From contig CALVZL010000005.1 in assembly GCA_944372525.1 (NCBI GenBank), positions 4,200-68,199 on the forward strand: DNA of 64,000 nucleotides. Reading direction: 5' to 3'. The notes beneath the pieces were generated by a model. It was not told where the DNA came from, made no database searches, and saw only the letters and a list, made by a program, of their open reading frames with translations. The translations under genes and the position numbers were made by a program. This stretch comes from an uncultured Clostridia bacterium. GTDB taxonomy: Bacteria > Bacillota > Clostridia > Christensenellales > Borkfalkiaceae. The number at the start of each line of letters is the position of its first letter. Position 1 is the first letter of the stretch. Positions 4,958-31,026 of the stretch are shown here, in pieces.

Positions 4958-4970
4958 TTCTCTCCCTCCT

Positions 4971-5696: not shown

Positions 5697-5734
5697 AACC
5701 CTTTCCTGCCGTTGCTCCCGCAGGAGACAAACGG

Positions 5735-7009: not shown

Positions 7010-7797
7010 TATGCCCGCTCCTTCCAAGCCTGCGCTTGTCTCCCTTCCGCTCCGTAGAGGCTATTGATCGTCCCGTTTTCAAACGAAGCGCCGGATACAA
7101 GGTCAAACACCTTTACGTAATCGCGTGTAATATTCTGCGGACGGGTGATCGCGCCGCCGATGATGACGTGAGAAATCCCGAGCCCGAGAATCGCCTGCAA
7201 TTCGGAAAACGTGTGGATCCCGCCTTCTGCAATGATGACCGCGTTGCGGATATCGCGCTGGAGCTTTCTGCAAAACTCGATGTCCGGGATCACGATCCCC
7301 TTGGTCTGTTCCGTGTAACTGCGCATCGTGGTGGAGATGTAATCGAACCCGAGTTGCTCCGCTTCCAGCGCCTCCTCGTACGTCGCAATGTCCGCCATCA
7401 ATGCCTTATCCGTATGATCGCGCAAATAACGGACAAGCTCCTTCGTCGTGACTCCTCCCGGACGGGGGCGCATCGTCGCGTCCATGGCGATGACCGAGCA
7501 TTTGGAATGGATAAGCTTTTTTGCCTCCCGAAGTGTCGGCGTAATATAGACGGGAGAGTCGGGATAGCACCGCTTGATCAGTCCGATGATGGGGAGTTTT
7601 TGGGTCAAAACCCGATGGATCGCATTGATATCCCTCACCGTGTTTGCCCGGATCCCGACCGCACCGCCGCGTTCGGCGGCGATCGCCATTTTTGCGATGG
7701 TATTCCCGCCGTACAGCGGCTCTCCTTTCAGCGCCTGACATGATACGACCAATCCGCTCGGAATGATATCTTTCATATTATTTCCCTGCCTTTCCAT
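7009..7797 (-). CDS. nanE: N-acetylmannosamine-6-phosphate 2-epimerase
   Basis: 262 aa. LVVSCQALKGEPLYG and GAVGIRAN are typical of NanE TIM-barrel epimerases. An alternative start is MKDIIPS at 7776. Confidence 0.85.
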   Translation of the reverse strand: MERQGNNMKDIIPSGLVVSCQALKGEPLYGGNTIAKMAIAAERGGAVGIRANTVRDINAIHRVLTQKLPIIGLIKRCYPDSPVYITPTLREAKKLIHSKCSVIAMDATMRPRPGGVTTKELVRYLRDHTDKALMADIATYEEALEAEQLGFDYISTTMRSYTEQTKGIVIPDIEFCRKLQRDIRNAVIIAEGGIHTFSELQAILGLGISHVIIGGAITRPQNITRDYVKVFDLVSGASFENGTINSLYGAEGRQAQAWKERA

Positions 7798-12280: not shown

Positions 12281-14263
12281 TTACCTCTCTTCCGTTCCCG
12301 CCTCCGCATGCATCACACGGAAAGAAATTCCGGAACGGTTATATTCTGCACGGTGGGAGGTTCTGTCCCACCGCAGGAGGATCTCGTTTCCGAGATCGTC
12401 CTCAAACAAATCGCTTCCCTCTCCGCTCACGAGAAATGTCAGCTCCCGATACCCAGCAAGATCGTTCCCCACATCCGAACACAGCTCTCCTCCGGATAAA
12501 TTGAGGGGAACGCAGCAATTCTCGCGCAAGTAGACGGGAAGATGTTCCCGCGTAAGCGGGACTTCATAAATTCCCCCGCTCAACCGCTTTCCGTCGTACA
12601 GGCCGAACCAGTTCCCTTCGGGCAGACGCACCGTCCGCGAAGGACGATAATCCTGTAACACGGGCGCAATCAGCAGCGCGTCGCCGAGCATGAATTCATC
12701 GTCTGTCCGATACGTCCACTCCTCCCCGGGAAATTCCAACGCGAGATGCCGCAGGGCGGGGATGCCCGTCTCGGAAGCCCGTTTCATCAAAAGATAATGA
12801 TAGGGAAGCAGATTATAGTGCAGAAAGAACTGACGGCGAAGCAGCGAAAGCAGATCGCCTTCCCTGCCCCCTTTCAGGTATGCCGCCATATTCCAGGGAC
12901 TTCTGTCGTTTCGCTTCCATGCCCCCGTAAAATCGCAGCGCCCGTTGGAGACAGGATCGCTGTGCCACTGCATCACGGGGACAAACGCAGCCGCCTGGAC
13001 CGCGCGCAGATACAGTTCCTCGCTGGGAAGATATCCGGAAAATCCCGCGATATCAAATCCCCAACAGCATACTCCGGACAACCCCGCCGAAAGTCCCGCC
13101 TTCAGCACGGAGGAAAACTCAGACCAAGTGGATTCCTGATCCCCCGCCCAGATCACGGAAAAACAAGGAGACCTCTGTCCGCCCGCGCGGGAAAAGACGA
13201 TGCCCCGCTCGCCCGCCAGCTCGGAAAACGCTTCGCTGTACTGCTCGCAGTAGGCGTTCTGCCCTTCGATGCCCGTCGTCCCGTCGGCAAAGCGCACCGT
13301 CTTCTCGTGCACAAATTCGCCGCCGTCCGTCTTGAATCCGTCCGCCCCGATCGTCATGAGGTAGGAGAACCTGTCAAGATACCGCGCCTTTGCCTCCGGA
13401 TTCGTAAAATCGGGAATCATGCTGCCGATGCACCAGGTGTGCGGGATCAGATAGGGAGTTCCGTCCGCGTTCGCCACACAGTCGCCTTGTGCTTTCGCGT
13501 ACTCGTTGTCTGAAAGGCACTGCGCTACGTTGCAGTCTGTCTCCAAATCGTTGCCCTGCGCATAGATGGGGACAAGCCAGAGCAAAAGTTTCATATTTTC
13601 GCCGTGGATCTTTTCGATCAGCGCCCGCGGATCCCGCCATTGCTCCGATCGGGAAAAATCCAGCTCTTCATAGGAGACCGTTTCGTCTCCTGCTTTGAAA
13701 GGACAGGAACATCCGTTCCAAAGATAGCGGGTCGTAAGATCGCTCCACGGTTCGAGGACAAAGACGCTGTGCGGAAATCCGTATTTTTGGTTCAGCGCAA
13801 GCTGTTCTTCGGCATCCGCCTGCGTTCTCCATCGGTTGGCGCTCATCCAAGCGCCGAGCACCCATTTCGGAAACAGACGGGGCATTCCGACTTTTTTCCG
13901 GAACTGTGTGAGGATTTCTTTCGGCGTCCCCTCAAAGAGATATACCTCTGCCTGCTCCCCTCTGCTTCCTTCCCAAAACGAGATGACGATCTCCCCTTCG
14001 CGGGTGAAATCAAAATCCGTTTCGACATAGGTGTCCACGTAGACGCCGAATCCGTCCGGGGTGAGGAAAAAGGGCATGGAGAGGTAGGTATATTCCCCCT
14101 GAGCAAAGCACTTTTCCCTGACACAGGCGCGTACAAATTTCCCCTTCTGATCGACGCTGTCAAACTTCTCGCCGAACCCGAAAGCGGCGCGGTAGTCCCG
14201 CCGCAACGTCAGGGAAAACCCCTCTCGCGTCTTTATGATTTCATTTATTTTGATTGTTTTCAT
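12281..14263 (-). CDS. GH31-family glycoside hydrolase (alpha-glucosidase/alpha-xylosidase-like), cytoplasmic
   Basis: GADGFKTDGGEF (nucleophile region), VIWAGDQESTW and GFDIAGFSG. The in-frame ATG at 14263 (MKTIKINE) overlaps the upstream gene's end by 23 nt. The track start at 14305 is a TTG. Confidence 0.8.
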   Translation of the reverse strand: MKTIKINEIIKTREGFSLTLRRDYRAAFGFGEKFDSVDQKGKFVRACVREKCFAQGEYTYLSMPFFLTPDGFGVYVDTYVETDFDFTREGEIVISFWEGSRGEQAEVYLFEGTPKEILTQFRKKVGMPRLFPKWVLGAWMSANRWRTQADAEEQLALNQKYGFPHSVFVLEPWSDLTTRYLWNGCSCPFKAGDETVSYEELDFSRSEQWRDPRALIEKIHGENMKLLLWLVPIYAQGNDLETDCNVAQCLSDNEYAKAQGDCVANADGTPYLIPHTWCIGSMIPDFTNPEAKARYLDRFSYLMTIGADGFKTDGGEFVHEKTVRFADGTTGIEGQNAYCEQYSEAFSELAGERGIVFSRAGGQRSPCFSVIWAGDQESTWSEFSSVLKAGLSAGLSGVCCWGFDIAGFSGYLPSEELYLRAVQAAAFVPVMQWHSDPVSNGRCDFTGAWKRNDRSPWNMAAYLKGGREGDLLSLLRRQFFLHYNLLPYHYLLMKRASETGIPALRHLALEFPGEEWTYRTDDEFMLGDALLIAPVLQDYRPSRTVRLPEGNWFGLYDGKRLSGGIYEVPLTREHLPVYLRENCCVPLNLSGGELCSDVGNDLAGYRELTFLVSGEGSDLFEDDLGNEILLRWDRTSHRAEYNRSGISFRVMHAEAGTEER

Positions 14264-15776
14264 ACAGTCCGTTTTCGTTCGTTTTGAGTATAAAATCCAT
14301 CTCAAATGTGCGATTCCAGGGCGCGCTCACGTCGATGTCGTCGACGCAGGCGGCTAGCTCCGGATAGTTTTCCCGCATATAGCGAAGCAGCTCCGTCTTC
14401 GCCGCGGCAACGCACTTTCCCCGCTCCCCGTCCAGTTCGAATACCGTGCAGCCGTTTTCGGGGACGGCGTGCTCGTCGATCCATGTCCTGGAATGCGAGC
14501 AATATCCGACATCGTCGTAATAGCGATGCAGGAGAAAATCACGGTTGCCCCGTTCATCCCCGCCCGCAAGATAGAGACAGCTCTCGCAGATGACCGTCCC
14601 GAGGGTATTGCTCGAAGTATTCCAACCCGCATAGGCGTGAATCTTCAGCAAAAGCCCCCGTTTTTGCAGCAGTCGGATCAGCTCGAGATCACTCGACGAA
14701 GGGTAGGCGATATCTGCGACCGCCACTTTCTTCCCTGCCGCCAGCGCATACTCGATCCGGTCGAGATACTCGGGCAGATTGCGTTCGATGTGATAGGGAA
14801 CCTCCCGCTGTTCCTCCGTCGCCCCGTACGGCATCTCGGAACCGACGTTTACGGCAAGAAAAATATCGCATTCGGGCAGACTGTACACCCGTACGCACCC
14901 CGCGGCGCGGATCTGGTTTTTGATCGTCGCGTCCACGGAGCGATCTTCGAATGCGGGAACGACGAACGGTCCCTTTGCGGATGCGTATCCCGCAAAGATC
15001 TTCGGTTTCACGCCCAGCCGCTCGTTGACCGCACGGCACAAAAGCGTCATGCCTACATCGTCTGCGGCGGGATACACGGGGATCTCCGACTGCAGCGCGT
15101 AGTTTCCGATCACCGCACGTACTTCTCGTTGATCCATCGAGGTAAACCCATAGGGCGCGCTGTCGTCCTGCGCCACCAGGAACCCGTCGAATATCCCTTC
15201 CCGAAACAGCTCGATCGTATGCAGAAGTACGTTGAGATTGACGCGGCGGCGCGCCGTATAATCGGCAAGCGCCTGCGGCGGAATCTTTGCTCTGACCCGT
15301 TCGTCGTCCGCCCGTTCCGCCTCTGTCAGAATCCCGAGCGTTTCTTTGTGGCGATATCTTCCGAACAGGTGGATCTCTGCGCCGCATTCCGCATAGTAGT
15401 CCGGCTCCTCGTCACTGAGCGAATAAAAGGGGCAGCGCATGATCGTCTGAAACGCGTACAGCCGAAGCGCGGGGTTTTCCCGCCTGAGCGCACGGAGCAG
15501 GTCTGCCCGAGCACAAAGTGCCTCTTCCCTCTCTCCGTGCAGACGGGAGGGAATCAGGCCTCCGTAGAGCAGCGTATCCAATGCAATCACCGCGGCATCC
15601 GCCCCCTTTGACTCTTGCTTCAGCCAGGAGGCAACCGCCTGCAGATTTGCGGGGCGTTTTTTACGCCCCATGATCGACAGAGGAGGCAGGGACAAAGAAG
15701 CGCCCGCATTCGGCATCATGGCCGGAAACCGATAGTTGCAAGGCCGCTCATCGAGCGGAAGATAGACGATACGCAT
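14241..15776 (-). CDS. DUF4127-family protein (uncharacterised), paralogue 1
   Basis: 511 aa. N-terminal MRIVYLPLDERPCNY and C-terminal YAGWNTSSNTLGT match what I recall of DUF4127. It aligns along its whole length with the ORF at 31023-32543. Confidence 0.7.
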   Translation of the reverse strand: MRIVYLPLDERPCNYRFPAMMPNAGASLSLPPLSIMGRKKRPANLQAVASWLKQESKGADAAVIALDTLLYGGLIPSRLHGEREEALCARADLLRALRRENPALRLYAFQTIMRCPFYSLSDEEPDYYAECGAEIHLFGRYRHKETLGILTEAERADDERVRAKIPPQALADYTARRRVNLNVLLHTIELFREGIFDGFLVAQDDSAPYGFTSMDQREVRAVIGNYALQSEIPVYPAADDVGMTLLCRAVNERLGVKPKIFAGYASAKGPFVVPAFEDRSVDATIKNQIRAAGCVRVYSLPECDIFLAVNVGSEMPYGATEEQREVPYHIERNLPEYLDRIEYALAAGKKVAVADIAYPSSSDLELIRLLQKRGLLLKIHAYAGWNTSSNTLGTVICESCLYLAGGDERGNRDFLLHRYYDDVGYCSHSRTWIDEHAVPENGCTVFELDGERGKCVAAAKTELLRYMRENYPELAACVDDIDVSAPWNRTFEMDFILKTNENGLYENNQNK

Positions 15777-15779
15777 CGA

Positions 15780-16676
15780 TTATCCCTTCACCGATCCCAG
15801 CGTAAGACCGTTTTTGATGTATTTGATGACATAAGGGTAAATGCACAGAATGGGGATGATGCTCAGGAGCATGGCCGCCGCCTGAATGTTGTTGACCCCC
15901 GCGACGACCTGCGGATCGTTTTTGATAATCCGCAGACGATCGATAAGGAGGTAGATATAATAGGCAAGCGGATGCGCTTCCTTCGCGGAGGCAGTGATAA
16001 AGAGCATCGCCGAACCATAGCTGTTCCATGCCCCTACGATCGAGAAGAAACAGCAGCTTCCGAGCACGGGGAGAGACATGGGGATCACGATGAAGAAAAA
16101 CATCTGGATCTCGCTCGCTCCGTCCAGCCGCGCCGCCTCTTCGATATCCGAGGGGAGCCCCTCGAAGAAGGTCTTAAAGAAGAGCAGATTGCTCACATTG
16201 CTGATCGAAATCAGTATGATCGACCAGATTTTATTGAGCAGGTTAAACTGGTACATGAGCAGATAGATCGGAATGATTCCCGCGGAAAAGAGCATCGTGA
16301 TGATGAAATAGATCATGATCCCCCCGCGGAACGGGCAATCGGATTTGGAAAGCGGATATGCCGCCATTGCTTCGACCAAGTTGGAAACTACGGTGATGAC
16401 TACGGTGATGATGACGGAGTTGAGAAAGGATCGCCAGAAATACGATGCCTCGTCCCCCGCCAAAATGTACTCGAAGGCCCACATCGTCCATCCCTTCGGG
16501 AACAGGATGAGCTGAGAATTGAATGCGCTGTTGGAAAATGCCAGCGAAAAGAAATTCATCAGCGGAAATATGATGACAATGGTGAAGATCACGAGCAGAA
16601 CGACGTTCAGCACGGAGAGAACAACATCCAGCGTACTGCTTTTGATCTTATTCGGATTTTTTTTGATCAGACGCAT
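15780..16676 (-). CDS. carbohydrate ABC transporter permease (LplC-like)
   Basis: EAA loop EAARLDGASEIQMFFFIVIP and six hydrophobic segments. The likely start is MRLIKKNPNK at 16676. Confidence 0.85.
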   Translation of the reverse strand: MRLIKKNPNKIKSSTLDVVLSVLNVVLLVIFTIVIIFPLMNFFSLAFSNSAFNSQLILFPKGWTMWAFEYILAGDEASYFWRSFLNSVIITVVITVVSNLVEAMAAYPLSKSDCPFRGGIMIYFIITMLFSAGIIPIYLLMYQFNLLNKIWSIILISISNVSNLLFFKTFFEGLPSDIEEAARLDGASEIQMFFFIVIPMSLPVLGSCCFFSIVGAWNSYGSAMLFITASAKEAHPLAYYIYLLIDRLRIIKNDPQVVAGVNNIQAAAMLLSIIPILCIYPYVIKYIKNGLTLGSVKG

Positions 16677-16686
16677 ATTCCCCTCC

Positions 16687-17751
16687 TTACCACAGACTGC
16701 GGTGCAGTGTTTTGGTCGTGATCGCATTGCCAACCAGCATGAGGATCAGCGCGATCAGTCCGTTGAACACGCCGAGTGCGGTTGCAAACGGAATGTTCGT
16801 GCGGTTGACGACGGAGATCGTATACAGATACGTATCCAACGTGATCTGCGTCGTCTCGAAGTCTGCGTTAAGCTGCATCATCGTATAAATTTGCTCGAAT
16901 CCCGCCGCCATCATTCCGCTGATGTTGAGCACCAGCATGAGGGCGATCGTCGACATGATTGCGGGGATCGTGAGATACCACGTCTTCTGAAGCTTATTCG
17001 CGCCTTCCAGCGTCGCCGATTCGTAAAAGCTCTTATCGATCGCCATGATCGCGGCATAGAACATGATGGACCCCCAGCCGGCGCCCTTCCATGCCGAAAG
17101 AAAAATGACAAAGAATTTGAACCATTCATTCTTTCCCATGAGGAAATAATCGGCATCGATGAACCCAAGCCGCACAAACAGTTCGTTGAGCGCACCGCCC
17201 TGTGAGTCGAGGATTCCCGACCAAATACCGATTACGATCGCCCAGGAGAGGAAGTTCGGCAGACAGATGATGATGAGAATGGTTTTGCTGAGCGTCTGAT
17301 TTTTCAGATCGGCAAGCTGCACCGCAATGATGATGGAAAGCGGAAAGCAGATCAGAAGCTTGATGACGTTGATGAGCAGCGTATTGCCCACGGCGGCGTA
17401 AAAGCTGTTATCCACAAAGATATCGAGATAGTTGCGGAACGTCCATTCTCCCGAAAACAAGTTGCTCAAAACCGTTCCGTGAATGAGGTTGAAATCTGCC
17501 CCTTTGAAAGAAAAGAGCAACCCGAGCATGGGAATATAGGAGAATATCAACGTGAACATTGCCGCAGGAAGAATAAACCACAACACCTTGCGGTATTTTT
17601 TCACCCGCTTCATCTGCAGCTTCCAATATTTCGGTTCTACGTAGAGCGAGTCGGTCCTCTCCTGCTTTCGCGTCGCATTCTCTGCTTCGGCGCCGACGAG
17701 GGCAGTCCCCTCTTCCGCGGCGGACGCCTGCAAAATCTTATCTTCTTTCAT
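16687..17751 (-). CDS. carbohydrate ABC transporter permease (LplB-like)
   Basis: EAA loop ESATLEGANKLQKTWYLTIP. The start at 17751 is supported by an AAGGAGG RBS. It has an unusually long, roughly 45-aa hydrophilic N-terminal extension. Confidence 0.85.
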   Translation of the reverse strand: MKEDKILQASAAEEGTALVGAEAENATRKQERTDSLYVEPKYWKLQMKRVKKYRKVLWFILPAAMFTLIFSYIPMLGLLFSFKGADFNLIHGTVLSNLFSGEWTFRNYLDIFVDNSFYAAVGNTLLINVIKLLICFPLSIIIAVQLADLKNQTLSKTILIIICLPNFLSWAIVIGIWSGILDSQGGALNELFVRLGFIDADYFLMGKNEWFKFFVIFLSAWKGAGWGSIMFYAAIMAIDKSFYESATLEGANKLQKTWYLTIPAIMSTIALMLVLNISGMMAAGFEQIYTMMQLNADFETTQITLDTYLYTISVVNRTNIPFATALGVFNGLIALILMLVGNAITTKTLHRSLW

Positions 17752-17784: not shown

Positions 17785-19590
17785 TCAGTCTTCCAGCCGC
17801 GCCAGCTTGACGTTTTTATACCAATCGGTCATCTCTTTGGAGATATCGTCCGACCAGTAATAATACGTCACGCCGCTCACCCGCGCATAAGTCTCTTTGA
17901 GAGACTGCCGTGTGATGTCAAGCGCTGCCTTTACGGTACCGCTGCGGGTATCGATCGCCGACGCGATCCCGCGCAGCGCCTTCGTCCGCGAAAGAATGTT
18001 GACGTTTGACCAATACTTGAAGGGCGGCATCATCGACATCGGATTGGTGATGATCGTCTCATCCATCGGAACGGTGACCTGCCATGCGTCGAATCCCGTC
18101 TCGCGCAGATGGAAAAGCACTTCCGCCACCACGGAGTTGGTGCCGTTGCAGTACTGTGAATTGTCGACGATCTGTTCGATATACCGATCGGTGAGTTGGA
18201 TCCAATATCCGCCTCCCGTGACCGTCTCGCCGTTGTATTCATAAGAATACGGACGCATATAGATGATCTTTTCCTTATAATCCTCGTAAGCAAGGATCTC
18301 GGTGGGATTGTCGGGATCAAATTCGGGCGCTCCTTCGGGCGCGTCGACTTTCACCCAGTGCTCGCCTTCGAGTCCGCCGTAATATTCCGCGAAATGCTCC
18401 AGTTTTTTTGCAAGGAAATCGATGATATAGACCGCATTTTCCGCCATGTAATAGGGAATGACGGTGTAGTAGGAGACCCCGTCGTCTCCGCCCTGCATGC
18501 GCGCCTTTTCCTGGACCACGGAATTGCTTGTTCCGTCGCCGCGAACCCGCGTATTCCAGACGATCGCCTCGTCGTGCACCGTCTGATAATCGTTGGAAAT
18601 GCCCGCCACCTGAGCCAGTTTTCCCTGTGTGACAATGGCGTTGACAAGAGGCGTCACCCACCAGTAAGACAAATAGACGCAGGAGTTGTTTTCGCTGGCA
18701 AAATCAGAGCAGATCTTATCCGACGAACTGTTCTGCCAGGAATCGGAAAGGATCTTCTGCTGTTTGAGATTGTACATGTATTCTGTATATAAATCGTAGC
18801 TTTCGTCGTAGATGTAGAGCTGAATATTTCCGTCATCGTCCAGCCCGAATTCAAGCGGGCAGTCAAACGCGGACAGGATGGGATTGACGCGCACGCTGTT
18901 GCTTCCGCCCAGCCCGAACGCATGATAATTGCTGTTCGTCGCGCCGTATTTTTCCTGAAGTTTGGTGAGCGCGTCCGTCACTTCGCCGAGCGTCTCCGGG
19001 ACCTTCACGCTTCCGTCTTCGTTGACGTAGCCGATCTCTTTGAGGTGATTGACATTCCACACAAGCGCCGAATCTTCCATGACGCAATATCCGAAATCCG
19101 GAATGGCATAGATGCCCGTCTTCCCGGAGTCGTCGGTGTATTTTACCGCATCCCAGCCGTAATCCATGAGATCGATGAGCTCATAGAGCTTTCTCCCGGA
19201 CTCGGTGTTTTGAAGAAGCTCGGTCAGATCGAGAAATGCCCCCATTTCGAGATAGGGCGTATATTGCGCCGAGTCGAGTTTCATGATGTGATATTCCTCA
19301 CGCGTCGTCAAAATTCCGTTGACTTCGTTATCGGCGGTGCTCTCGCTCAGCTCGCGATAATTGACGTGGTATCCCGTCGTTTCTTCAATGATTTTTGCGG
19401 TATCCTGCGTTTCGAGGTTTCCGAATCCGGAAATGCCGGTTGCGGGATAGATGGCGTTGATTTCGATGGGGTTGCTCAGATCAACGTTCCAGTTGATCTG
19501 ATAGTTTTCCTCGCCGACGCATCCTGCCAGGGAGCCGACTGCAGAACTCAACATTATCCCCGCAAGCAAAAGCGTTCCTGCTCTTTTCAC
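17785..19590 (-). CDS. extracellular solute-binding lipoprotein of the ABC importer (LplA-like, large)
   Basis: Lipobox SLAGC. At 601 aa, its size and position upstream of two LplB/LplC-type permeases fit family-1 sugar-binding proteins. Confidence 0.8.
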   Translation of the reverse strand: MKRAGTLLLAGIMLSSAVGSLAGCVGEENYQINWNVDLSNPIEINAIYPATGISGFGNLETQDTAKIIEETTGYHVNYRELSESTADNEVNGILTTREEYHIMKLDSAQYTPYLEMGAFLDLTELLQNTESGRKLYELIDLMDYGWDAVKYTDDSGKTGIYAIPDFGYCVMEDSALVWNVNHLKEIGYVNEDGSVKVPETLGEVTDALTKLQEKYGATNSNYHAFGLGGSNSVRVNPILSAFDCPLEFGLDDDGNIQLYIYDESYDLYTEYMYNLKQQKILSDSWQNSSSDKICSDFASENNSCVYLSYWWVTPLVNAIVTQGKLAQVAGISNDYQTVHDEAIVWNTRVRGDGTSNSVVQEKARMQGGDDGVSYYTVIPYYMAENAVYIIDFLAKKLEHFAEYYGGLEGEHWVKVDAPEGAPEFDPDNPTEILAYEDYKEKIIYMRPYSYEYNGETVTGGGYWIQLTDRYIEQIVDNSQYCNGTNSVVAEVLFHLRETGFDAWQVTVPMDETIITNPMSMMPPFKYWSNVNILSRTKALRGIASAIDTRSGTVKAALDITRQSLKETYARVSGVTYYYWSDDISKEMTDWYKNVKLARLED

Positions 19591-19631: not shown

Positions 19632-19661
19632 CAGGCGGTAATAATGCCTTATTACCGCCTG
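19632..19661 (-). terminator. stem-loop between the large lipoprotein gene and the SBP gene (partial terminator or processing site)
   Basis: Perfect 11-bp stem caggcggtaat/attaccgcctg (19632-19642 and 19651-19661). No clear U-tract follows on the minus strand. Confidence 0.35.
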
Positions 19662-19743: not shown

Positions 19744-22700
19744 TTATGCCTTTACGGTAACGCTTTCGGTGACTCCCAATCCGTTCGACGTCAGCGTATA
19801 ACCGGCATCCGTGAGGAGTTTGGTCACCTTTCCGATGCAGACGATCAGATCGGTCGACACATCGAATCCGAAATACGTCTTGTAGACTTTCGAGCGATAG
19901 AGGAATTCTTTGCCCTGGCTTGCGTTGAAGTTCCAAGCAAGACCGCCCTCGGAGAATCCGCTGAAGTTCACCATATAGGCGTTGACGACATCCGCCACTT
20001 CCTGCGTGATCGAGGTGATCGTCCCCGCTTCGATCTTCTGCGCGAGCGAAAGCACGTTGTAGAGATAATCGAAGTCTTTGCGGAATGCGCTGTCATAGTA
20101 TCCGATCTCCGTCAGGATCGTCTTGAGGAATGCGGGAAGCTCGAGTTTGCTCTCCTGCATCTTCTGCGCAACGAAGCAGACATAGAAGGAAGTCATCCAG
20201 TCGTTGTCCGAAGTCATGACCGTCGCCTTCGGGTTGGTCGAATCGTCTGCACAATCACCTTCGTTTGTCTGATAATAGCCGACGGAAGATTTGATCCGCA
20301 TGCTCCAACGAATCAGGCTCGTGAGCGCTTCGGGACCGCTCAGCGTGAGGTCGGCATTGCCCTGCACGTTGCGCGTCGTGATCGTCGCGTTCTTATATGC
20401 GTCCGTCTCCGTGAGCGCCGTCACCTGCATCACGACCGTGCTCCAGTTTGCGATCCAGCCCTGCATGGCTTCCATGGTAAGACCGTTGTAGGCAAGCAAT
20501 GTAGCCTGATCGTCCGCACTGAGCGCCATAAACTTCGTCTGAAGTCCCAGCAGCAGCTGAATCTGGTTGTACAGATATCCTTTGTTCGTGCCGTCCGTAG
20601 ACTGCCAGCCCTCGTATGTCGTCCAATCATCGGGATCTCCGATCTGCACGAAGTCGTCCTGCACGGACTGCGCCGCCGCAGAAAGGACGATCTTGGTAAT
20701 GTTTGCGACCGTCACGCCCCAGCCGTTCTCTTTGATCGTGTAACCCGCTTCCGAAAGCATCTCCGCAACCGCATCGAAATACTGATAGGTCTTAAAAGCA
20801 GAGCTGTCGGGATTGGTCAGCGTGCCGCCCGCCATGAGCACAATCCTGCCCGTACGAGAGGACATATACTTTTCAAATTTGCTTCCGGAATTCCAGTTCC
20901 AGGAGAGGAATGCGCTGATTTCGTATTCGCTGTTCCAGATCTCGTTGAGGAACGCCATTTCTTCCTCTGTCATATCGTTGATCGTGAGGGATCCGGAGAC
21001 AATGCGCTGCGCAAGTTTCACCGTTCCGGCGATGGGATAGTACGCGCCCTGATAGAAGTTGTCATATTCGATCGCACTCAAAAGATTCTGCACATAGGTA
21101 GGAAGTTCGAGGCCGAGCGATTCGAAATATTCGACGCATGCCACCACTCTGAGCGAAGGATAGCAGTTGTTGTCGAAGTTCATGACCTTGACGCCGGAAG
21201 CGTTTGTATCGTCGTTTTCGCCGTTCGTTCCGCCCCACTGGGTTCCGACGGAGATCTTGTAGGCATATTCGATCAATTCGCTGAGCGCTTCTTCACTCGT
21301 GAAATCTTTGATTGCGGTGGAGCTCATGATCGTCTCATAAGCCTTGAAGACGCCGCTCCGGAACGCCTCGCTCTCCATGAGCGCCGCAAGTTCCTCCGAC
21401 AGAACGCCCCATGCCTCAAAGTTCGCAATCTGTTCTGCCGTCAGGTCCTGCCTAACTGCCATGCGCGCAGTTCCGGGCAGAGCGTCATACGCTGCCTGTA
21501 CGCCGCGGAAAGCAACCACTTCGCTGTAAAGATATCCTGCGATCGCACTCTCCGTCGTCGTCCAGCCGAGATAGGAATAAGAAGCCAGATCGGAAAGCGC
21601 CTGAATGTCCGCAAGCACCTTTCTCGAATCGTCCGTATGTTCGGGTGCAATTCTTTCGATGACGTCTGCCGTCACGCCCCAGCCGTTCGTATTGACGGTG
21701 TAATTGTTGGACGTAAGGAACGCCGCAACAACGTCGAAATACTGATACGTCTTATACGCCGAGCCGTCTTCGTTTGTGAGTCTTCCGCCCGCAACATAAG
21801 CGATCCTGCCCGTACGGGACGAATAGAACATCTCAAACTTGTTGCCCGAATTCCAGTTCCATGCAATGTGTGCGCTGATCGTGTATCCATTGACCCAAAC
21901 CACATTGAGGAATGCCATCTCCTCGTCGGTCAACTCTGCCGTCGAAGTCAGATTTTCCGTCGCAATGCGCTGTGCCAGTTTCACCGTTTCCGCGATGGGA
22001 TAATATGCGCCTTCGTAGAAACTGTCATATTCGATCGCCGTAAGCAGCTCCTTTACATAGGTCGGAAGCTCCAGACCGAGAGAATCGAAATACTCGACGC
22101 AGGCGATGATTCTCAAAGAGGGATATGTGCTGGTATCGAACGCCATGACCTTGGATCCCGCATTGTTGCCGTCGTCGTTTTCGGAGTCCGTCCAGCTCAC
22201 TGCGCGCGAGATCTTGTTCGCATATTCGATGAGCTGCGAAAGCGCATCCACGCTCGTATAATCTGCAAGCGTATTGGAACCCAACAACTTATCGTATGTG
22301 CGGAAGACGCCGGTCTGGAACGCCTCGTTCTCCATGAGCGCTGCGATTTCATCCGACAGAACAGTCCACGTGTCAAACGTCGTGCGGTTGATCCGATAGA
22401 AAATCGCGATCTTATCTTCGCTCGAAAGCGCATCGTAATCCGCTTTGATCTTTCTGAACTGCTCCAGTTCGGTATAGAGATATCCGACGATCTCCGTCGC
22501 GTCATCGGGCGCAACCCAGCCCAGATAGGGATAGCTGAGGATATTGCCGAGTTTGCCGAACGCATCCGCAACCGCCTGCCCTTCTTCTGTGAGCTGAGCA
22601 GATTGTGCGAGAAGTTCTTTTGCCGTAAGATATGCGCTGAAATCGAGAACCGTGCGATATCTCTGCGTAAGCGTGCTGTTTGTGCCGTTTTCGTCGTCGC

Positions 22701-24267
22701 CGTACCAGAGTCCGACCGCGTTGATCTGCTCCTCATACTGCGCCACGTTCTCCAGCGTCACGTCGCCGAGCGCGTCGATCGCAGACTGATAAACGCCTGC
22801 ATTGGAACCGTATGCGGACTCGCCGACAGGGTTCTTGTTGAGATCGAACGTATACACGTCGCATCCGTCCTGTGCCTTCCAGCTCGTAAAGGCATAGCCG
22901 TTGAGAATGGTATAATCGAGAATCCCTTCCGTCTTCTCTTCCGTAGAAGCCATGACCAAAGAATGATCCTTGCCTCTCCAATCGGGATCGATCGCAAATC
23001 CGTATGTCGTATCCGACATCTCTTCCGTGGAAGGAACGTGCGCCGTCGCCGACTTCACGATAAGGTTTTCCCATTTTGCGCCGTTGAAGAAATCTACGTT
23101 CTTCTGCAGAACACCCGTCTCCACGTCTGCCTTGACGTCGAGGCCGGCAACGAACACGTATGCATTTTCATACCCGATCGATGCGCCGGGGAATTTCTCG
23201 TTGACGAGCGAATCGTCCATTCTGCGCAGATAGGTCGCACCGTCTTTGACCGTGACTTCGAGATCATTGACCTGATACAGCCCCATGTCGTCCTCGAGCT
23301 GTTTGGTGCGGATGCTCATCGTCAGCTCCTCTGCGTCCGGTTCGAAATATCCCGCCTCATTCCAGGTCGAAGTCAGCAAACACTGATCGCTGATCGTATA
23401 ATCCGCACCCGAGAAAGAATTGTCACGGGAGGTCGCCTCGAAAGGATACCAGTTGCCCGTGTTCACATCGCACGCGATGCCCATGGTGATGACGTAATAG
23501 TCCTGCCAGGAATAAAATCCCATGAAGGCATATGTCGTGTCCGATCCGTCGTATGCGGGCGTGATCTTCATCTGCGACAGGTCGATGGTATAATCGAGCC
23601 CCGTCACACCCGTCAAACGGCTGGGCATCTGCAGAACTGCGGCTTCCATTGCCGTCGAAAGCTCCCAGGTCTGAGCCTGCGTATTATCCGGATCGATCTC
23701 CGCGCCGTTCGCGTCGAGCAGACCGTAACCGTTATAGCTCTGCGTGGAACGGGTTCCGTATCCCTGCACTCTGTGCACGACATAGTCGGTATTCTGAACG
23801 AGGGACATGTAACTGGTATCCCAGCAGTCCATTGCATCGAGCATGGTGCCCGCTTCGTAGTACCAGAACATTTCGTCGTTGTTCGTTGCAAAGCCCGCAC
23901 GATTTTTGAAAACCTTGGCGGTCTCCCCCACTCGCGTCACATAGCTTCCGAATACGTTGGTGCCCGCATCCTCTGCGACGCATGCATTGATCGCCGCTGC
24001 GATCGTCTTATAATTCCCCAGCAACGTTCCCGTGCTCGAATAGGCAGAGTAGGCGTCACTGCGCGTATCCGTACGGGTTGCGGTATACGTCTTTGCCGTA
24101 ACGGTATTGTACACCGTTCCGTCTGCGGTGAACGTCATGTCTTCCCGATCGATGCGATCCCCGCCGGGACCATCCGGTTCATCCGGCTTGCATGCGGTAA
24201 ATCCTGCGAACGCCGAGACCAGCAATGCAGAACATACCAGTAATACCGCTATCTTGTTCCTTTTCAT
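19744..24267 (-). CDS. very large surface lipoprotein of unknown function with three tandem ~315-aa modules
   Basis: The lipobox start MKRNKIAVLLVCSALLVSAFAGFTAC at 24267 is the 22nd codon of the 1528-aa track ORF. No known catalytic motif recognised. See the repeat feature. Confidence 0.7.
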   Translation of the reverse strand: MKRNKIAVLLVCSALLVSAFAGFTACKPDEPDGPGGDRIDREDMTFTADGTVYNTVTAKTYTATRTDTRSDAYSAYSSTGTLLGNYKTIAAAINACVAEDAGTNVFGSYVTRVGETAKVFKNRAGFATNNDEMFWYYEAGTMLDAMDCWDTSYMSLVQNTDYVVHRVQGYGTRSTQSYNGYGLLDANGAEIDPDNTQAQTWELSTAMEAAVLQMPSRLTGVTGLDYTIDLSQMKITPAYDGSDTTYAFMGFYSWQDYYVITMGIACDVNTGNWYPFEATSRDNSFSGADYTISDQCLLTSTWNEAGYFEPDAEELTMSIRTKQLEDDMGLYQVNDLEVTVKDGATYLRRMDDSLVNEKFPGASIGYENAYVFVAGLDVKADVETGVLQKNVDFFNGAKWENLIVKSATAHVPSTEEMSDTTYGFAIDPDWRGKDHSLVMASTEEKTEGILDYTILNGYAFTSWKAQDGCDVYTFDLNKNPVGESAYGSNAGVYQSAIDALGDVTLENVAQYEEQINAVGLWYGDDENGTNSTLTQRYRTVLDFSAYLTAKELLAQSAQLTEEGQAVADAFGKLGNILSYPYLGWVAPDDATEIVGYLYTELEQFRKIKADYDALSSEDKIAIFYRINRTTFDTWTVLSDEIAALMENEAFQTGVFRTYDKLLGSNTLADYTSVDALSQLIEYANKISRAVSWTDSENDDGNNAGSKVMAFDTSTYPSLRIIACVEYFDSLGLELPTYVKELLTAIEYDSFYEGAYYPIAETVKLAQRIATENLTSTAELTDEEMAFLNVVWVNGYTISAHIAWNWNSGNKFEMFYSSRTGRIAYVAGGRLTNEDGSAYKTYQYFDVVAAFLTSNNYTVNTNGWGVTADVIERIAPEHTDDSRKVLADIQALSDLASYSYLGWTTTESAIAGYLYSEVVAFRGVQAAYDALPGTARMAVRQDLTAEQIANFEAWGVLSEELAALMESEAFRSGVFKAYETIMSSTAIKDFTSEEALSELIEYAYKISVGTQWGGTNGENDDTNASGVKVMNFDNNCYPSLRVVACVEYFESLGLELPTYVQNLLSAIEYDNFYQGAYYPIAGTVKLAQRIVSGSLTINDMTEEEMAFLNEIWNSEYEISAFLSWNWNSGSKFEKYMSSRTGRIVLMAGGTLTNPDSSAFKTYQYFDAVAEMLSEAGYTIKENGWGVTVANITKIVLSAAAQSVQDDFVQIGDPDDWTTYEGWQSTDGTNKGYLYNQIQLLLGLQTKFMALSADDQATLLAYNGLTMEAMQGWIANWSTVVMQVTALTETDAYKNATITTRNVQGNADLTLSGPEALTSLIRWSMRIKSSVGYYQTNEGDCADDSTNPKATVMTSDNDWMTSFYVCFVAQKMQESKLELPAFLKTILTEIGYYDSAFRKDFDYLYNVLSLAQKIEAGTITSITQEVADVVNAYMVNFSGFSEGGLAWNFNASQGKEFLYRSKVYKTYFGFDVSTDLIVCIGKVTKLLTDAGYTLTSNGLGVTESVTVKA
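19747..22596 (-). repeat. three tandem protein-level repeats inside the large lipoprotein gene (about 21649-22596, 20689-21648 and 19747-20688)
   Basis: Copies 1 and 2 share long near-identical blocks. Examples are YPSLRIIACVEYFDSLGLELPTYVKELL versus YPSLRVVACVEYFESLGLELPTYVQNLL, and SSRTGRIAYVAGGRLTNEDGSAYKTYQYFD versus SSRTGRIVLMAGGTLTNPDSSAFKTYQYFD. Copy 3 is clearly related but more diverged (KLELPAFLKTILTEIGYYD, NGLGVTESV). Confidence 0.8.
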
Positions 24268-24504
24268 AGACTTCCTCCCGTTGATTTCCGCCTTGCTTAT
24301 TTTTACGAAAATCCCGTATCTTAATTTCATTATACACCCGATTTTCGCTTTGTCAAGAGTTTCTGAAAAAAATTTTTATTTTTTCATCAAAAATCCCTTG
24401 GCTTTTTCATGTTTTAATTCGATTTTTCTAAAAAACCATAAAAAAAGAACAGCTTTGAAAGAAATTTTCATTCAAAACTGTTTTTTCTGTAATTTTTTCC
24501 TGCC

Positions 24505-25338
24505 CTAAACGAGTTTGCGCGCGGTTGCGACATTGCCCTTTGCGATGAACTCGTCGAAACGGTCCTTGTCACACATATGTAACCCCGTGCAAAGCACGTC
24601 GACGAAGAAGAGCTGCATGAGTTTGCTCGTCATCGCACCAGGCTGAACGGGAGATTCCATCGGAACCGAAGAGAGCACCAGATCGGAAAACCGCGTCAGC
24701 GGCGAACGTTCGTAACAAGTAATGACGATGATCTTCATCCCGCAGGAGCGCGCGAGCTGCGCCGCCTCGATCACGTCCTTCGTCCCGCCGGAGACGCTGA
24801 ACACGATCATGAGATCGGATTCGTTCCGCGAAGAGATCAAAATATTCTGAAAATGAATATCCTGCTCGCAATAGGTCAGGATCCCCATCTTCATCAGGCG
24901 GTTGTGCAATTCCAGCGCGGCGAGATAGGAATGCCCCACGCCGCAGCAGCAGACCGTTCTGGCGGAGAGAATATAGTCGAACGCCTGCTGCAGCTTTGCT
25001 TCCGTCAGGCGTTTTCTGCACAAATCGAGCGCCTTCTGATAGTCCGCAATGATGTTTCCGACATATTCGATCCCGCTTTCTTCTTCCTGCATGGTTCCGC
25101 CGATCATGCTTTGGGCCAGATTGAGACGAAATTCCTGATATCCGTTGAACCCGAGGGAGCGGCAGAACCGGAGCACCGTCGCTTCCGCAACGCCCACCTC
25201 TTCGGCAAGCTGAGTGATCGACATGTAGATGATATGTTTATGATCTGCGGTTTCGAAATACTCAAGAATTTTTCGCTGCGACTTGGTAATCTTCCCCGCT
25301 TTCAGGCTCTCGATCCTACCCGCCAAAGTATCTTTCAT
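24505..25338 (-). CDS. MurR/RpiR-family transcriptional regulator (HTH + SIS sugar-phosphate sensor domain)
   Basis: N-terminal HTH_6-like segment (ITQLAEEVGVAEATVLRFCRSLGFNGYQEF) and a SIS domain (VCCCGVGHSYLAALEL...IVFSVSGGTKD). Confidence 0.85.
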   Translation of the reverse strand: MKDTLAGRIESLKAGKITKSQRKILEYFETADHKHIIYMSITQLAEEVGVAEATVLRFCRSLGFNGYQEFRLNLAQSMIGGTMQEEESGIEYVGNIIADYQKALDLCRKRLTEAKLQQAFDYILSARTVCCCGVGHSYLAALELHNRLMKMGILTYCEQDIHFQNILISSRNESDLMIVFSVSGGTKDVIEAAQLARSCGMKIIVITCYERSPLTRFSDLVLSSVPMESPVQPGAMTSKLMQLFFVDVLCTGLHMCDKDRFDEFIAKGNVATARKLV

Positions 25339-30151: not shown

Positions 30152-31026
30152 TTGAATGTTACCCCGCTTTTTCCGAATTCAGTCCCAAGATCCAGTCCGA
30201 GCGCGCCGAAAATCCCGGCACGCGGTCCGAGACGGGCAAACGCCACATCCTCTTTCTTTTCGATCATAGAGAAAAACATATTTTCCGATTGCGCAACTCC
30301 GCCGCCCAGCAGAATTTTCTGCGGCGAAAGCGCCGTACGAATATCGTCGAGCAGGAGATTGAGGCGGCGGGCAAACGCGGCGAAGATCTCCTTTGTCCAC
30401 TCCTCCCCCGCGGCATGGCGTTCGAACAGCTCCCTGCAACTCTGCAGTGCATGAAATTTCCTCCTGCCGCTGCGCAGAAGCGCGGTCGCCGAAAGATAGC
30501 TCTCGGCACAGCCCCGTTTTCCGCAGCTGCACCGTCTGCCCCCGGGAACCAGGCAGAGATGTCCCCAGCGCGCTCCGTCGAAGGCTTTGCCCCGTACGAT
30601 TTTTCCGCCCGCCATGCTCGCGCCGCCGACGCCCGTCCCGAACGTGAGCATGGTCACGTCGGTCAGTTCGGGATAAAACTTCAGTTCTCCCAAAAGAGCG
30701 CATACGGCGTCGTTTTCCGCGCGGCAGGGCGTGCGATAACGCGTCCCGACGCTGCCTGCAAGGTCCGCGCCCGTCCATCCGCGCAGATTGTCCGTCGCAT
30801 AGACGCAGACACCGCGCGCGGGATCGATGTTTCCTGCAGAGGAAATGCCGATGAATCGGACGGATTCCGTCATCAGGACGTCGATCAGGGCAAAGAGCTG
30901 CGAAAAGATCGCCTCCCTGCCCTCCTGTCCGCGAGTCGGAAGAGAGAACTCCCGCTCAATTTGATCCCCGTCCGCGCGCACGCCCTTAATCGTCGTCCCG
31001 CCGATATCCACGCCGATCTTTTTCAT
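30148..31026 (-). CDS. ROK-family sugar kinase (GlcNAc or ManNAc kinase candidate)
   Basis: ATP-binding MKKIGVDIGGTTIKG and the ROK zinc motif CSCGKRGCAESY. Confidence 0.85.
   Translation of the reverse strand: MKKIGVDIGGTTIKGVRADGDQIEREFSLPTRGQEGREAIFSQLFALIDVLMTESVRFIGISSAGNIDPARGVCVYATDNLRGWTGADLAGSVGTRYRTPCRAENDAVCALLGELKFYPELTDVTMLTFGTGVGGASMAGGKIVRGKAFDGARWGHLCLVPGGRRCSCGKRGCAESYLSATALLRSGRRKFHALQSCRELFERHAAGEEWTKEIFAAFARRLNLLLDDIRTALSPQKILLGGGVAQSENMFFSMIEKKEDVAFARLGPRAGIFGALGLDLGTEFGKSGVTFK

What the first reader, a model, noticed from the sequence alone, without database searches (positions are those of the whole stretch)
19744..24267. 1500-aa surface lipoprotein built from an unknown 530-aa head and three tandem ~315-aa modules, first gene of the importer operon
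Seen: a lipobox signal (LLVSAFAGFTAC), then ORF residues ~579-894, 895-1214 and 1215-1528 form three tandem copies of one module. Copies 1 and 2 share long near-identical blocks: YPSLR(I/V)(I/V)ACVEYF(D/E)SLGLELPTYV..., GAYYPIA(E/G)TVKLAQRI, WNWNSG(N/S)KFE, SSRTGRI...AGG.LTN.D.SA(Y/F)KTYQYFD and NGWGVT. Copy 3 is clearly homologous but much more diverged. I cannot place either the module or the N-terminal region in any domain family I know. It has no CBM, Ig, LRR, SLH or catalytic signature. Context: it sits directly after the RpiR regulator and directly before the solute-binding protein. That is the slot occupied by surface glycan-capture proteins in other utilisation loci. Inference: it may be a novel multivalent substrate-binding or tethering protein for the locus's polymer.
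Basis: partly seen in the sequence, partly recalled or inferred. Interest (0 to 1): 0.7.

Follow-up and report, generated by a model that had tools for sequence, protein, structure and literature searches.

The report
Giant lipoprotein partnering a sugar importer
This is a real, intact 1507-residue surface lipoprotein from an uncultured gut Clostridia bacterium, made of a lectin/glucanase-like beta-sandwich plus three copies of an all-helical module that resembles no solved structure; it always sits in front of one particular sugar importer, so it is probably that importer's substrate-capturing partner, but nobody has tested this.

Summary
The gene runs 24267..19744 on the minus strand and encodes 1507 aa with a lipobox (Cys26). 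It has three tandem ~315-aa modules: m1/m2 are 54% identical (E 6e-124) and m3 is 26% identical to each (E 1e-23 to 1e-25).

Pfam, NCBIfam and PDB sequence searches give no significant match. AlphaFold2 models are confident.
- The 'head' contains a concanavalin-A-like beta-sandwich. It shows fold-level similarity to YncM, neprosin, GH16 and PL7, but lacks their catalytic motifs.
- The module is all-alpha and has no PDB or viral-structure match.

The family is very small: 40 clusters among 1.84 billion representative proteins. All members come from gut Clostridia/Christensenellaceae and Bacilli metagenome-assembled genomes (MAGs), and they carry 1-8 modules.

In nearly every locus the gene order is RpiR, this gene, a divergent ~600-aa solute-binding lipoprotein, then two ABC permeases. 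These lie inside a conserved locus of alpha-glucosidases, GH20, DUF4127, a GDPD phosphodiesterase and HexNAc/ManNAc catabolism genes.

The gene is under purifying selection (dN/dS ~0.1). The most likely role is surface capture and hand-off of a phosphodiester-linked glycopolymer to the importer. An enzymatic head or a scaffold role cannot be excluded.

The parts
24329..24356 (-). Promoter of the operon: perfect sigma-70 consensus TTGACA-16-TATAAT. The -10 box overlaps the spurious upstream ATG at 24330.
   Evidence: 12 of 12 matches; sequence read. The hairpin plus T-run of the RpiR gene lies just upstream.
24271..24279 (-). Ribosome-binding site GGGAGGAAG, 3 nt before the true start ATG at 24267.
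   Evidence: Sequence read.
24190..24267 (-). Lipoprotein signal peptide, residues 1-26 (MKRNKIAVLLVCSALLVSAFAGFTAC). Cys26 is the predicted lipid-attachment residue.
   Evidence: Cys26 is invariant in 70 of 70 homologues.
24073..24189 (-). Acidic, Pro/Gly/Thr-rich tether, residues 27-65, between the lipid anchor and the folded part.
   Evidence: The first block of the model has lower pLDDT.
22828..24072 (-). 'Head', residues ~66-480: a small alpha/beta N-terminal subdomain plus a concanavalin-A-like beta-sandwich. This is the most conserved part of the family.
   Evidence: AF2 pLDDT 94.5, pTM 0.92. Foldseek PDB top hits are 4hfs YncM, 7zvb/9qr8 neprosin, 8xai CPAVM1, 1zm1 GH16 and PL7, with E 1e-5 to 1e-2 and TM (target-normalised) 0.45-0.55. 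Universal residues are R69 D100 Y109 D229 Y246 C266 T270 W273 S300 W302 D377 D392 E416.
22603..22827 (-). Helical connector, residues ~481-555, between the beta-sandwich and module 1.
   Evidence: DSSP helices at model positions 449-515.
21649..22602 (-). Module 1, residues 556-873, subtype A. Motifs: ENDDxN, YPSLR, ELPTY, WNWNSGNKFE, NGWGVT.
20689..21648 (-). Module 2, residues 874-1193, subtype A. All-alpha fold with no solved structural relative.
   Evidence: AF2 pLDDT 92.6, pTM 0.90. Best Foldseek E is 0.33 against the PDB and 0.21 against BFVD.
19747..20688 (-). Module 3, residues 1194-1507, subtype B. Motifs: GGLAWNFN, FLYRSKxYKxYFG, NGLGVT. Stop codon at 19744-19746.
   Evidence: It is orthologous to the third modules of other species.
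19632..19661 (-). Strong 15-bp hairpin (approximate coordinates) without a U-tract, in the 153-nt spacer between this gene and the solute-binding-protein gene.
   Evidence: The spacer folds at -50.3 kcal/mol, z = -4.6.
17785..19590 (-). Partner gene: a 601-aa lipoprotein (lipobox SLAGC), a divergent family-1 solute-binding protein.
   Evidence: It follows X in every locus where the contig is long enough.
15780..17751 (-). Two ABC permease genes (BPD_transp_1). No ATPase gene lies in the locus.
24505..25338 (-). RpiR-family regulator (HTH_6 + SIS), usually directly upstream of X.

Best explanation
The gene encodes a founding member of a small, undescribed family of very large surface lipoproteins. 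These act as the dedicated extracellular partner of one particular ABC sugar importer.

Shown:
- The protein is lipid-anchored at Cys26.
- After a ~40-residue tether comes a concanavalin-A-like beta-sandwich, which sits close to the membrane.
- Next comes a helical connector, then three all-helical ~315-aa modules that extend away from the membrane.
- The gene is under purifying selection.
- It is transcribed from its own consensus promoter, as the first gene of a same-strand array that continues with the solute-binding protein, two permeases and catabolic enzymes.
- The neighbour relationship is conserved in Clostridia and Bacilli gut MAGs.

Inferred:
- Each distal helical module has a conserved site rich in Trp, Asn and Arg (WNWN, R, GG, NGWGVT). 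These sites capture a glycopolymer outside the wall.
- The membrane-proximal beta-sandwich holds the polymer next to the locus's secreted GDPD phosphodiesterase, GH26-like enzyme and NAGPA-like phosphodiester glycosidase.
- The fragments pass to the ~600-aa solute-binding protein and are imported.
- From the enzyme set, the polymer is probably a phosphodiester-linked, alpha-glucosyl- and HexNAc/ManNAc-containing polymer, such as a teichoic acid or a teichoic-acid-like capsule.
For: Anatomy:
- The lipobox Cys is invariant in 70 of 70 homologues.
- The three modules are confirmed.
- Both structure models are confident.
- The head has a lectin/glucanase-type fold but lacks GH16 and PL7 catalytic motifs. 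Its only universally conserved Glu lies in a loop.
- The conserved positions of the module are aromatic and polar: W250, N251, N235, R265, G309, G311. The protein is 12.5% aromatic.

Partnership with the importer:
- The order X, SBP, permease, permease is found in about 33 of 35 genome loci and in further metagenome loci. This includes a subfamily with only ~30% identity.
- The X family and the SBP family are both small and of similar size: 40 clusters at 50% identity and 89 clusters at 90% identity.

Locus content:
- Secreted or lipid-anchored: GDPD, a GH26-like protein, a Big_2 protein and a NAGPA-like protein.
- Cytoplasmic: two GH31 alpha-glucosidases, GH20, ROK kinase, NanE, NagA and NagB.

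Selection: 22 synonymous against 7 non-synonymous codon differences between two strains.

Positional orthology of the modules argues that each module has its own maintained role.
Against: - No binding experiment exists, and no sequence or structural similarity to any known carbohydrate-binding module was found.
- The protein is strongly acidic (pI 4.25). That does not favour direct electrostatic binding of a polyanionic teichoic acid.
- The head's nearest structural neighbours include enzymes (glutamic peptidases, GH16, PL7). It also has universally conserved Asp, Glu and Cys residues that could form an active site.
- The substrate assignment rests on gene content only.
- No expression data were examined.
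Confidence: 0.45

Rival explanations
1. X is the locus's surface endo-acting enzyme. The membrane-proximal jelly-roll is a new catalytic domain (glycanase, lyase or peptidase-like). It cuts the polymer next to the transporter. The helical modules only bind or space.
For: - The top Foldseek neighbours of the head are enzymes: neprosin glutamic peptidase, the CPAVM1/YncM protease family, GH16 lichenase and PL7 lyases.
- The head is the most conserved part of the family.
- It carries universally conserved D229, D377, D392, E416 and C266.
- It also occurs without modules, as head-only lipoproteins in a related locus.
Against: - There is no GH16 ExDxxE motif and no PL7 R/Q/H/Y motifs.
- The only universal Glu is predicted in a loop rather than on the concave sheet.
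- Glutamic peptidases work only at acid pH (PMC9343461).
- The head-only paralogues in L041 lack D229 and C266.
- The locus already encodes secreted GDPD, GH26-like and NAGPA-like enzymes.
- The similarity is at fold level only, with TM about 0.5 and 8-13% identity.
Confidence: 0.25
2. X is a docking scaffold. Each position-specific helical module binds a different protein partner, such as the solute-binding protein or the GH26-like, Big_2, GDPD or NAGPA-like lipoproteins. This would assemble a surface 'utilisome' around the importer.
For: - Modules are orthologous by position and come in two or more conserved subtypes, as expected for distinct partners.
- The module number varies from 1 to 8.
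- Several other lipoproteins are conserved in the locus.
- The module fold resembles no known carbohydrate-binding fold.
Against: - No interaction was tested.
- One-module proteins occur in loci that still hold the full enzyme set (L007, L008, L015).
- No docking-type short motif was seen in the partner proteins.
- No profile similarity was found between the module and the SBP.
Confidence: 0.15
3. X is a general surface coat protein or adhesin that merely happens to lie next to the transporter.
For: It is large, acidic, repetitive and surface-anchored. It is more variable between two near-identical strains than the rest of the locus.
Against: - Its synteny with one SBP/permease family is kept in every locus with enough sequence, in two bacterial classes (Clostridia and Bacilli), behind a shared promoter.
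- There are no SLH, LPXTG, Ig or LRR signatures.
- It has no structural match to S-layer proteins; the only such hit, 9hpn, has E 3.6.
Confidence: 0.05

Closest known systems
Surface glycan-binding proteins (SusD/SusE/SusF-like SGBPs) of Bacteroidota polysaccharide utilisation loci
   Same: - An N-terminal lipidated Cys projects the protein from the membrane.
- The gene lies beside the transporter genes of a substrate-specific locus.
- There is no similarity to classical CBMs.
- The proposed role is capture and hand-off of a polymer (review PMC13543919).
   Different: - There is no sequence or fold relationship: no TPR/SusD-like or Ig-like hits.
- The partner is an ABC importer with a solute-binding protein in Clostridia and Bacilli, not a TonB-dependent SusC.
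- X is 2-4 times larger and built from helical modules.
Gram-positive PULs (gpPULs) with a surface-anchored multimodular enzyme plus an ABC importer
   Same: The locus meets the gpPUL definition of a glycoside-degrading enzyme, a transport system and a regulator (PMC13543919). A large extracellular protein precedes the SBP gene.
   Different: In known gpPULs the large surface protein is a recognisable glycoside hydrolase with CBMs and a sortase or SLH anchor. Here there is no GH or CBM signature and the anchor is a lipid.
Concanavalin-A-like lectin/glucanase fold proteins: YncM/CPAVM1 (4hfs, 8xai), neprosin (7zvb), GH16 lichenase (1zm1), PL7 alginate lyases
   Same: The core of the head is an antiparallel two-sheet beta-sandwich that Foldseek matches with probability ~1.0 and TM (target-normalised) 0.45-0.55.
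   Different: - Sequence identity is only 8-13%, and there is no sequence-profile match.
- The catalytic motifs of GH16 and PL7 are absent, and no Glu pair on the sheet is evident.
- The head is about twice as large, with an extra N-terminal subdomain and a C-terminal helical connector.
Large LplA-type ('aldouronate') family-1 solute-binding lipoproteins of Firmicutes. This refers to the neighbour gene, not to X.
   Same: The 601-aa neighbour is a lipoprotein. Its family profile weakly hits family-1 sugar SBPs, and its most distant relative is named aldouronate-transport SBP.
   Different: It falls below the Pfam and NCBIfam thresholds. Unlike ordinary LplA-type SBPs, it is always accompanied by an X-family gene.

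Membership tests
Bacterial lipoproteins (Lgt/Lsp substrates) | Positively charged n-region, hydrophobic h-region and a lipobox ending in Cys | tested here: met
   The signal peptide is MKRNK-IAVLLVCSALLVSAFAG-FTA-C. Phe at position -3 is slightly atypical, and homologues mostly have GL(T/V)(A/G)C. The Cys is invariant in 70 of 70 homologues.
Tandem-repeat (multimodular) protein | Statistically significant internal homology between consecutive segments | tested here: met
   m1/m2 E 5.9e-124; m1/m3 E 8e-25; m2/m3 E 2e-23.
Concanavalin-A-like lectin/glucanase fold (head) | Two-sheet antiparallel jelly-roll beta-sandwich superposable on family members | tested here: met
   AF2 pLDDT 94.5. Foldseek probability is 1.00 to 4hfs, 7zvb, 8xai and 1zm1, with TM (target-normalised) 0.44-0.55. 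This is fold level only.
GH16 glucanases | Catalytic E-x-D-x(-x)-E motif on a strand of the concave sheet | tested here: not met
   The only regex match (EPDAEE, residue 309) is not conserved. No E[hydrophobic]D[hydrophobic]xE motif is present.
PL7 alginate lyases | Conserved R(S/T/N)EL, QIH and YFKAG motifs (Arg, Gln, His, Tyr) | tested here: not met
   None of the motifs is present, and there is no conserved His in the head.
Glutamic peptidases (G1 eqolisins, G3 neprosin) | Catalytic Glu plus Gln/Glu pair on the front sheet; activity at acid pH; usually a pro-domain | tested here: inconclusive
   The only universally conserved Glu (E416) is predicted in a loop. Q255 is not conserved in the distant subfamily. 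No residue-level superposition was possible. The features of neprosin are taken from PMC9343461.
Known carbohydrate-binding, Ig, LRR, SLH or cell-wall-anchor domains | A match to the corresponding Pfam or NCBIfam profile | tested here: not met
   No Pfam or NCBIfam hit above threshold anywhere in the 1507 aa.
SusD-like / SGBP families | TPR-containing all-helical SusD fold, or Ig-like SusE/F fold | tested here: not met
   The module model has no PDB match better than E 0.33 and TM 0.2.
Gram-positive PUL (gpPUL) | [quoted passage not shown] | tested here: met
   GH31 x2, GH20 and a GH26-like protein; SBP plus two permeases; RpiR. The definition is taken from PMC13543919.
Glycan-binding function of X | Measured binding to a defined glycan | not testable with these tools
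   Requires recombinant protein and glycan arrays, ITC or pull-downs.

The most novel reading that the evidence does not exclude
This reading has three parts.
- The ~315-aa helical module is a new protein fold and the first example of a new class of extracellular ligand-capture (or partner-docking) module.
- X is an obligate third extracellular component of a previously unrecognised ABC-importer subtype: lipoprotein X, a divergent SBP and the permeases.
- Uncultured gut Christensenellales and Bacilli use this system to harvest phosphodiester-linked cell-wall or capsular glycopolymers (teichoic-acid-like, ManNAc/GlcNAc/alpha-Glc-containing) released by other bacteria.
Probability: 0.25. Interest if true: 0.8.

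Novelty: new variant of a known kind. Interest (0 to 1): 0.6.

Why it matters
Nutrient capture by Gram-positive gut bacteria is far less understood than the Sus-type systems of Bacteroidota. Christensenellales are health-associated, and the members that carry this gene are known only as MAGs.

This work defines a conserved cassette: a regulator, a giant lipoprotein, a divergent binding protein and permeases. The largest component of that cassette has no known relatives, and its helical module resembles no solved structure.

If the proposed role holds, this would be a Gram-positive counterpart of surface glycan-binding proteins. It would also give a handle on how gut bacteria recycle teichoic-acid-like polymers of their neighbours.

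The conserved locus additionally offers a functional context for DUF4127, for which no literature was found.

Tried and rejected
- Sequence family searches of X gave nothing significant. I tried Pfam at E<=1, NCBIfam, PDB phmmer and a PDB family profile.
- Foldseek of the module gave nothing better than E 0.2 against the PDB or the viral BFVD. AlphaFold DB was not available.
- hhalign of the module profile against the SBP family and against the head showed no relationship.
- A head-only profile search of 5.8 billion proteins for annotated distant relatives found only more unnamed family members.
- Regex tests for GH16 and PL7 motifs were negative.
- I considered whether m3 is a decaying copy. 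This was rejected, because m3-type modules are conserved and orthologous across species.
- I considered whether the gene is decaying. This was rejected (dN/dS ~0.1; intact in 70 homologues).
- In-frame stops in the L010 copy looked like possible genetic-code recoding. This was rejected: the stop types are mixed and a 24-aa duplication points to an assembly artefact.
- The inverted repeat around the -10 box was tested as a conserved operator. It is not found in other loci.
- Literature searches for DUF4127, PF13552 and CPAVM1 gave nothing useful.
- The PDB sequence search for DUF4127 gave nothing.
Full report
**1. The observation**

The longest ORF over the finding is 19744..24330 on the minus strand, 1528 aa. 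Its first ATG lies inside the -10 hexamer of a perfect sigma-70 consensus promoter, TTGACA-16-TATAAT at 24356..24329 (sequence). The second ATG, at 24267, is preceded by GGGAGGAAG. The gene is therefore 24267..19744 and encodes 1507 aa, as the finding states.

The N-terminus MKRNKIAVLLVCSALLVSAFAGFTAC is a lipoprotein signal. Its Cys26 is conserved in 70 of 70 homologues.

Pairwise BLAST of the segments confirms the three modules:
- m1 vs m2: 54% identity over 323 aa, E 5.9e-124.
- m1 vs m3: 26.6% identity, E 8e-25.
- m2 vs m3: 26.2% identity, E 2e-23.

Sequence searches do not place the protein in any family. Pfam gives only a sub-threshold chance hit. NCBIfam gives none. PDB sequences give none with the single sequence or with a family profile.

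**2. What the parts are**

The head. An AlphaFold2 model of residues 40-555, built on 47 homologues, is confident (pLDDT 94.5, pTM 0.92). It contains three elements:
- a small alpha/beta N-terminal subdomain;
- a large antiparallel beta-sandwich;
- a C-terminal helical connector.

Foldseek against the PDB gives fold-level matches with E 1e-5 to 1e-2, TM (target-normalised) 0.44-0.55 and 8-13% identity. The hits are:
- B. subtilis YncM (4hfs) and its relative CPAVM1 (8xai);
- the glutamic peptidase neprosin (7zvb, 9qr8);
- a GH16 lichenase (1zm1) and a fungal lectin-like protein;
- more weakly, PL7 lyases.

The head is thus a concanavalin-A-like jelly roll. It lacks the GH16 ExDxxE motif and the PL7 motifs. 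Its only universally conserved Glu (E416) is predicted in a loop. Neprosin-type enzymes use a Glu pair on the front sheet and work only at acid pH (PMC9343461). Residues conserved in at least 93% of 70 heads include R69, D100, Y109, D229, Y246, C266, T270, W273, S300, W302, D377, D392 and E416. These could form a ligand site, a Ca2+ site or an active site. I had no coordinates to decide.

The module. A model of module 2, built on 22 sequences, is also confident (pLDDT 92.6, pTM 0.90). It is almost entirely helical. It has no structural neighbour: the best Foldseek E is 0.33 in the PDB and 0.21 in BFVD, with TM no higher than 0.2. Conserved positions cluster in the C-terminal half: I216, N235, W250, N251, R265, G274, G309, G311 and T313, that is the WNWN, R, GG and NGWGVT motifs.

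Topology. Because the lipid anchor is N-terminal, the so-called head is membrane-proximal and the modules are distal.

**3. The family**

A profile of 19 modules was searched against 1.84 billion representative proteins. It found only 40 proteins, one of which is a chance hit to a WNFNSG repeat.

- Members carry one to eight modules.
- Nearly all begin with the lipobox and the head. One (P0061) is headless.
- There are at least two module subtypes. Subtype A has WNWNSGxKFE and NGWGVT. Subtype B has GGLxWNFN, FLYRSKxYKxYFG and GLGVT. Module 3 of the window protein is subtype B.
- Best-hit analysis shows positional orthology: m1 matches m1, m2 matches m2 and m3 matches m3 across species. The three-module layout is therefore old and each position is separately maintained. 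Copy 3 is not a decayed copy.
- All 35 genome hits are gut MAGs from rabbit, chicken, rumen and mouse. They are labelled uncultured Clostridia, Christensenellaceae/Christensenella, Bacilli or Erysipelotrichaceae. No cultured representative was found.
- A near-identical strain (L001, 99.7% over 24.5 kb) differs from the window in X by 22 synonymous and 7 non-synonymous codons, giving dN/dS of roughly 0.1. The gene is under purifying selection.

**4. Context**

tblastn of the window's neighbours against all fetched loci and gene tables show a conserved gene order.
- X is followed by a ~600-660-aa lipoprotein and two BPD_transp_1 permeases in every locus where the contig is long enough.
- An RpiR regulator usually lies upstream.
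- The same order holds in a subfamily whose head is only ~30% identical (P0070).

The ~600-aa protein has no Pfam or NCBIfam hit. A profile of its family weakly matches family-1 sugar SBPs (7x0i E 8e-4, 6fth, 4qrz). Some relatives carry PF13416 or are named solute-binding protein. It is a divergent SBP. Its family is about as small as the X family (89 clusters at 90% identity).

In the most distant SBP relative's locus (L041), the slot before the SBP holds three lipoproteins: a 993-aa protein with a Big_2 domain plus an X-type head, and two head-only proteins of 444 and 432 aa. The head is therefore the constant unit and the helical modules are an elaboration.

The wider locus is also conserved.
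- Upstream: a NAGPA-like phosphodiester glycosidase lipoprotein, a GDSL/GxDLY esterase, DUF4127, ROK kinase, GH20, a GH31 and a GNAT-like protein. This GH31 matches the Blautia obeum alpha-glucosidase 3n04 at E 4e-240.
- Downstream: DUF4127, a second GH31 of the Lmo2446 type, a Big_2 lipoprotein, a secreted GDPD phosphodiesterase and a GH26-like lipoprotein. Then come NanE-, NagB- and NagA-like genes. NagA is supported by its Amidohydro_1 hit. NanE and NagB are inferred from their N-terminal sequences.
- No ABC ATPase lies in the locus. From general knowledge, this is usual for CUT1-type systems that share an MsmK-like ATPase.

This enzyme set points to a phosphodiester-linked polymer containing alpha-glucose and GlcNAc/ManNAc, possibly O-acetylated. 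A teichoic acid or a teichoic-acid-like capsule would fit. This is inference from gene content.

**5. Mechanism**

Best-supported model (confidence 0.45). X is the dedicated extracellular partner of this importer. It is anchored by Cys26. Its distal helical modules capture the polymer through Trp/Asn/Arg-rich sites. Its membrane-proximal jelly roll holds the polymer near the secreted phosphodiesterase and glycosidases and near the SBP.
- Shown: the anchor, the architecture, selection, operon position and conserved partnership.
- Inferred: binding, hand-off and the identity of the substrate.
- Against: there is no similarity to known binding modules, and the pI is 4.25.

Rivals:
- The head is a new catalytic domain and X is the locus's endo-enzyme (0.25).
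- The position-specific modules dock other lipoproteins of the locus into a surface complex (0.15).
- X is an unrelated coat protein or adhesin (0.05). This is contradicted by the conserved synteny.

**6. Comparison with known systems**

In function, the closest analogues are the lipid-anchored surface glycan-binding proteins of Bacteroidota PULs and the large surface enzymes of Gram-positive PULs (PMC13543919). X is a member of neither.
- It has no SusD, SusE or CBM fold and no GH signature.
- Its partner is an ABC importer, not a SusC.

The locus does meet the gpPUL definition. The head belongs to the concanavalin-A-like fold class but fails or leaves open the defining catalytic features of GH16, PL7 and glutamic peptidases.

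**7. Verdict**

This is a real, conserved and undescribed protein family with a helical module that has no solved structural relative. It is fixed in a conserved importer cassette of uncultured gut Firmicutes. Its functional idea is plausible and is now better grounded by synteny, but it remains untested.

Limits of this analysis:
- AlphaFold DB could not be searched.
- No model coordinates were available for residue mapping.
- No expression data were examined.

Interest 0.6. Novelty: new variant of a known kind, that is a transporter-associated surface protein of a glycan utilisation locus built from new parts.

Noticed in passing
window 24306-24347: A perfect 8-nt inverted repeat, CGAAAATC/GATTTTCG with 26 nt between the arms, brackets the -10 box of the X promoter. 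It may be an operator, for example for the adjacent RpiR. The exact sequence was found only in the near-identical strain L001 and not in other loci.
   Followed up: partly
window ~19632-19661 (minus strand): A 15-bp GC-rich hairpin without a U-tract lies in the 153-nt spacer between X and the SBP gene. The spacer folds at -50.3 kcal/mol, z = -4.6. It could be a partial terminator or an mRNA-stabilising or processing element that sets the X:SBP expression ratio.
   Followed up: partly
window 21637-24243 (+ strand): An 868-aa ORF lies antisense to X. All homology, synteny and selection evidence is for the minus-strand frame, so this is almost certainly a shadow ORF.
   Followed up: no
window 14241-15776 and ~31023-32540 (minus strand): Two cytoplasmic DUF4127 paralogues (~52% identical) are conserved throughout these loci. 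No paper in the library mentions DUF4127 or PF13552, and there is no PDB relative. The locus gives this family a functional context.
   Followed up: partly
window 33672-35096 and 35584-36606 (minus strand): Two more lipoproteins lie just upstream of the conserved block. One is a NAGPA-type phosphodiester glycosidase ('uncovering enzyme' family). The other is a BspA-type LRR protein. The first strengthens the case for a phosphodiester-linked HexNAc substrate.
   Followed up: partly
window 19744-24267 compared with L001 10001-14524: Between two strains that are 99.7% identical over 24.5 kb, X holds 29 differing codons while the whole locus has 66 nucleotide mismatches. That is about 3.5 times the density of the rest. 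Four of the seven amino-acid changes cluster at residues 98-119 of the head. This may reflect local recombination or diversifying pressure on that loop.
   Followed up: partly
L041 2324-8038: In a more distant locus, the slot before the SBP holds a 993-aa Big_2 plus X-head lipoprotein and two head-only lipoproteins of 444 and 432 aa. These paralogues lack several residues that are otherwise universal, including D229 and C266.
   Followed up: partly
P0061 (1301 aa): This is a headless family member. It has a Cys/His-rich N-terminus (HEHEYETTVIAPTCEAQGYTHYACKGCDDEY...) followed directly by modules. Two of those modules carry insertions of ~170 aa.
   Followed up: no
L017 (CAVJMJ010000002.1): A contig carrying the full Clostridia-type locus is labelled Parasutterella excrementihominis, a proteobacterium. 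This is probably a mis-binned or mislabelled record.
   Followed up: no
L010 125-4667: The X and SBP genes of this Erysipelotrichaceae MAG contain in-frame stops (TAA, TGA). A 24-aa direct duplication lies around the stop in X. This looks like an assembly artefact or local decay rather than genetic-code recoding.
   Followed up: yes
window 3818-7797 (minus strand): NagA-like (Amidohydro_1), NagB-like and NanE-like genes and a GFO/IDH/MocA oxidoreductase follow the locus. This suggests that ManNAc-6-P and GlcNAc-6-P are the catabolic end points and the likely effectors of the RpiR/SIS regulator.
   Followed up: partly
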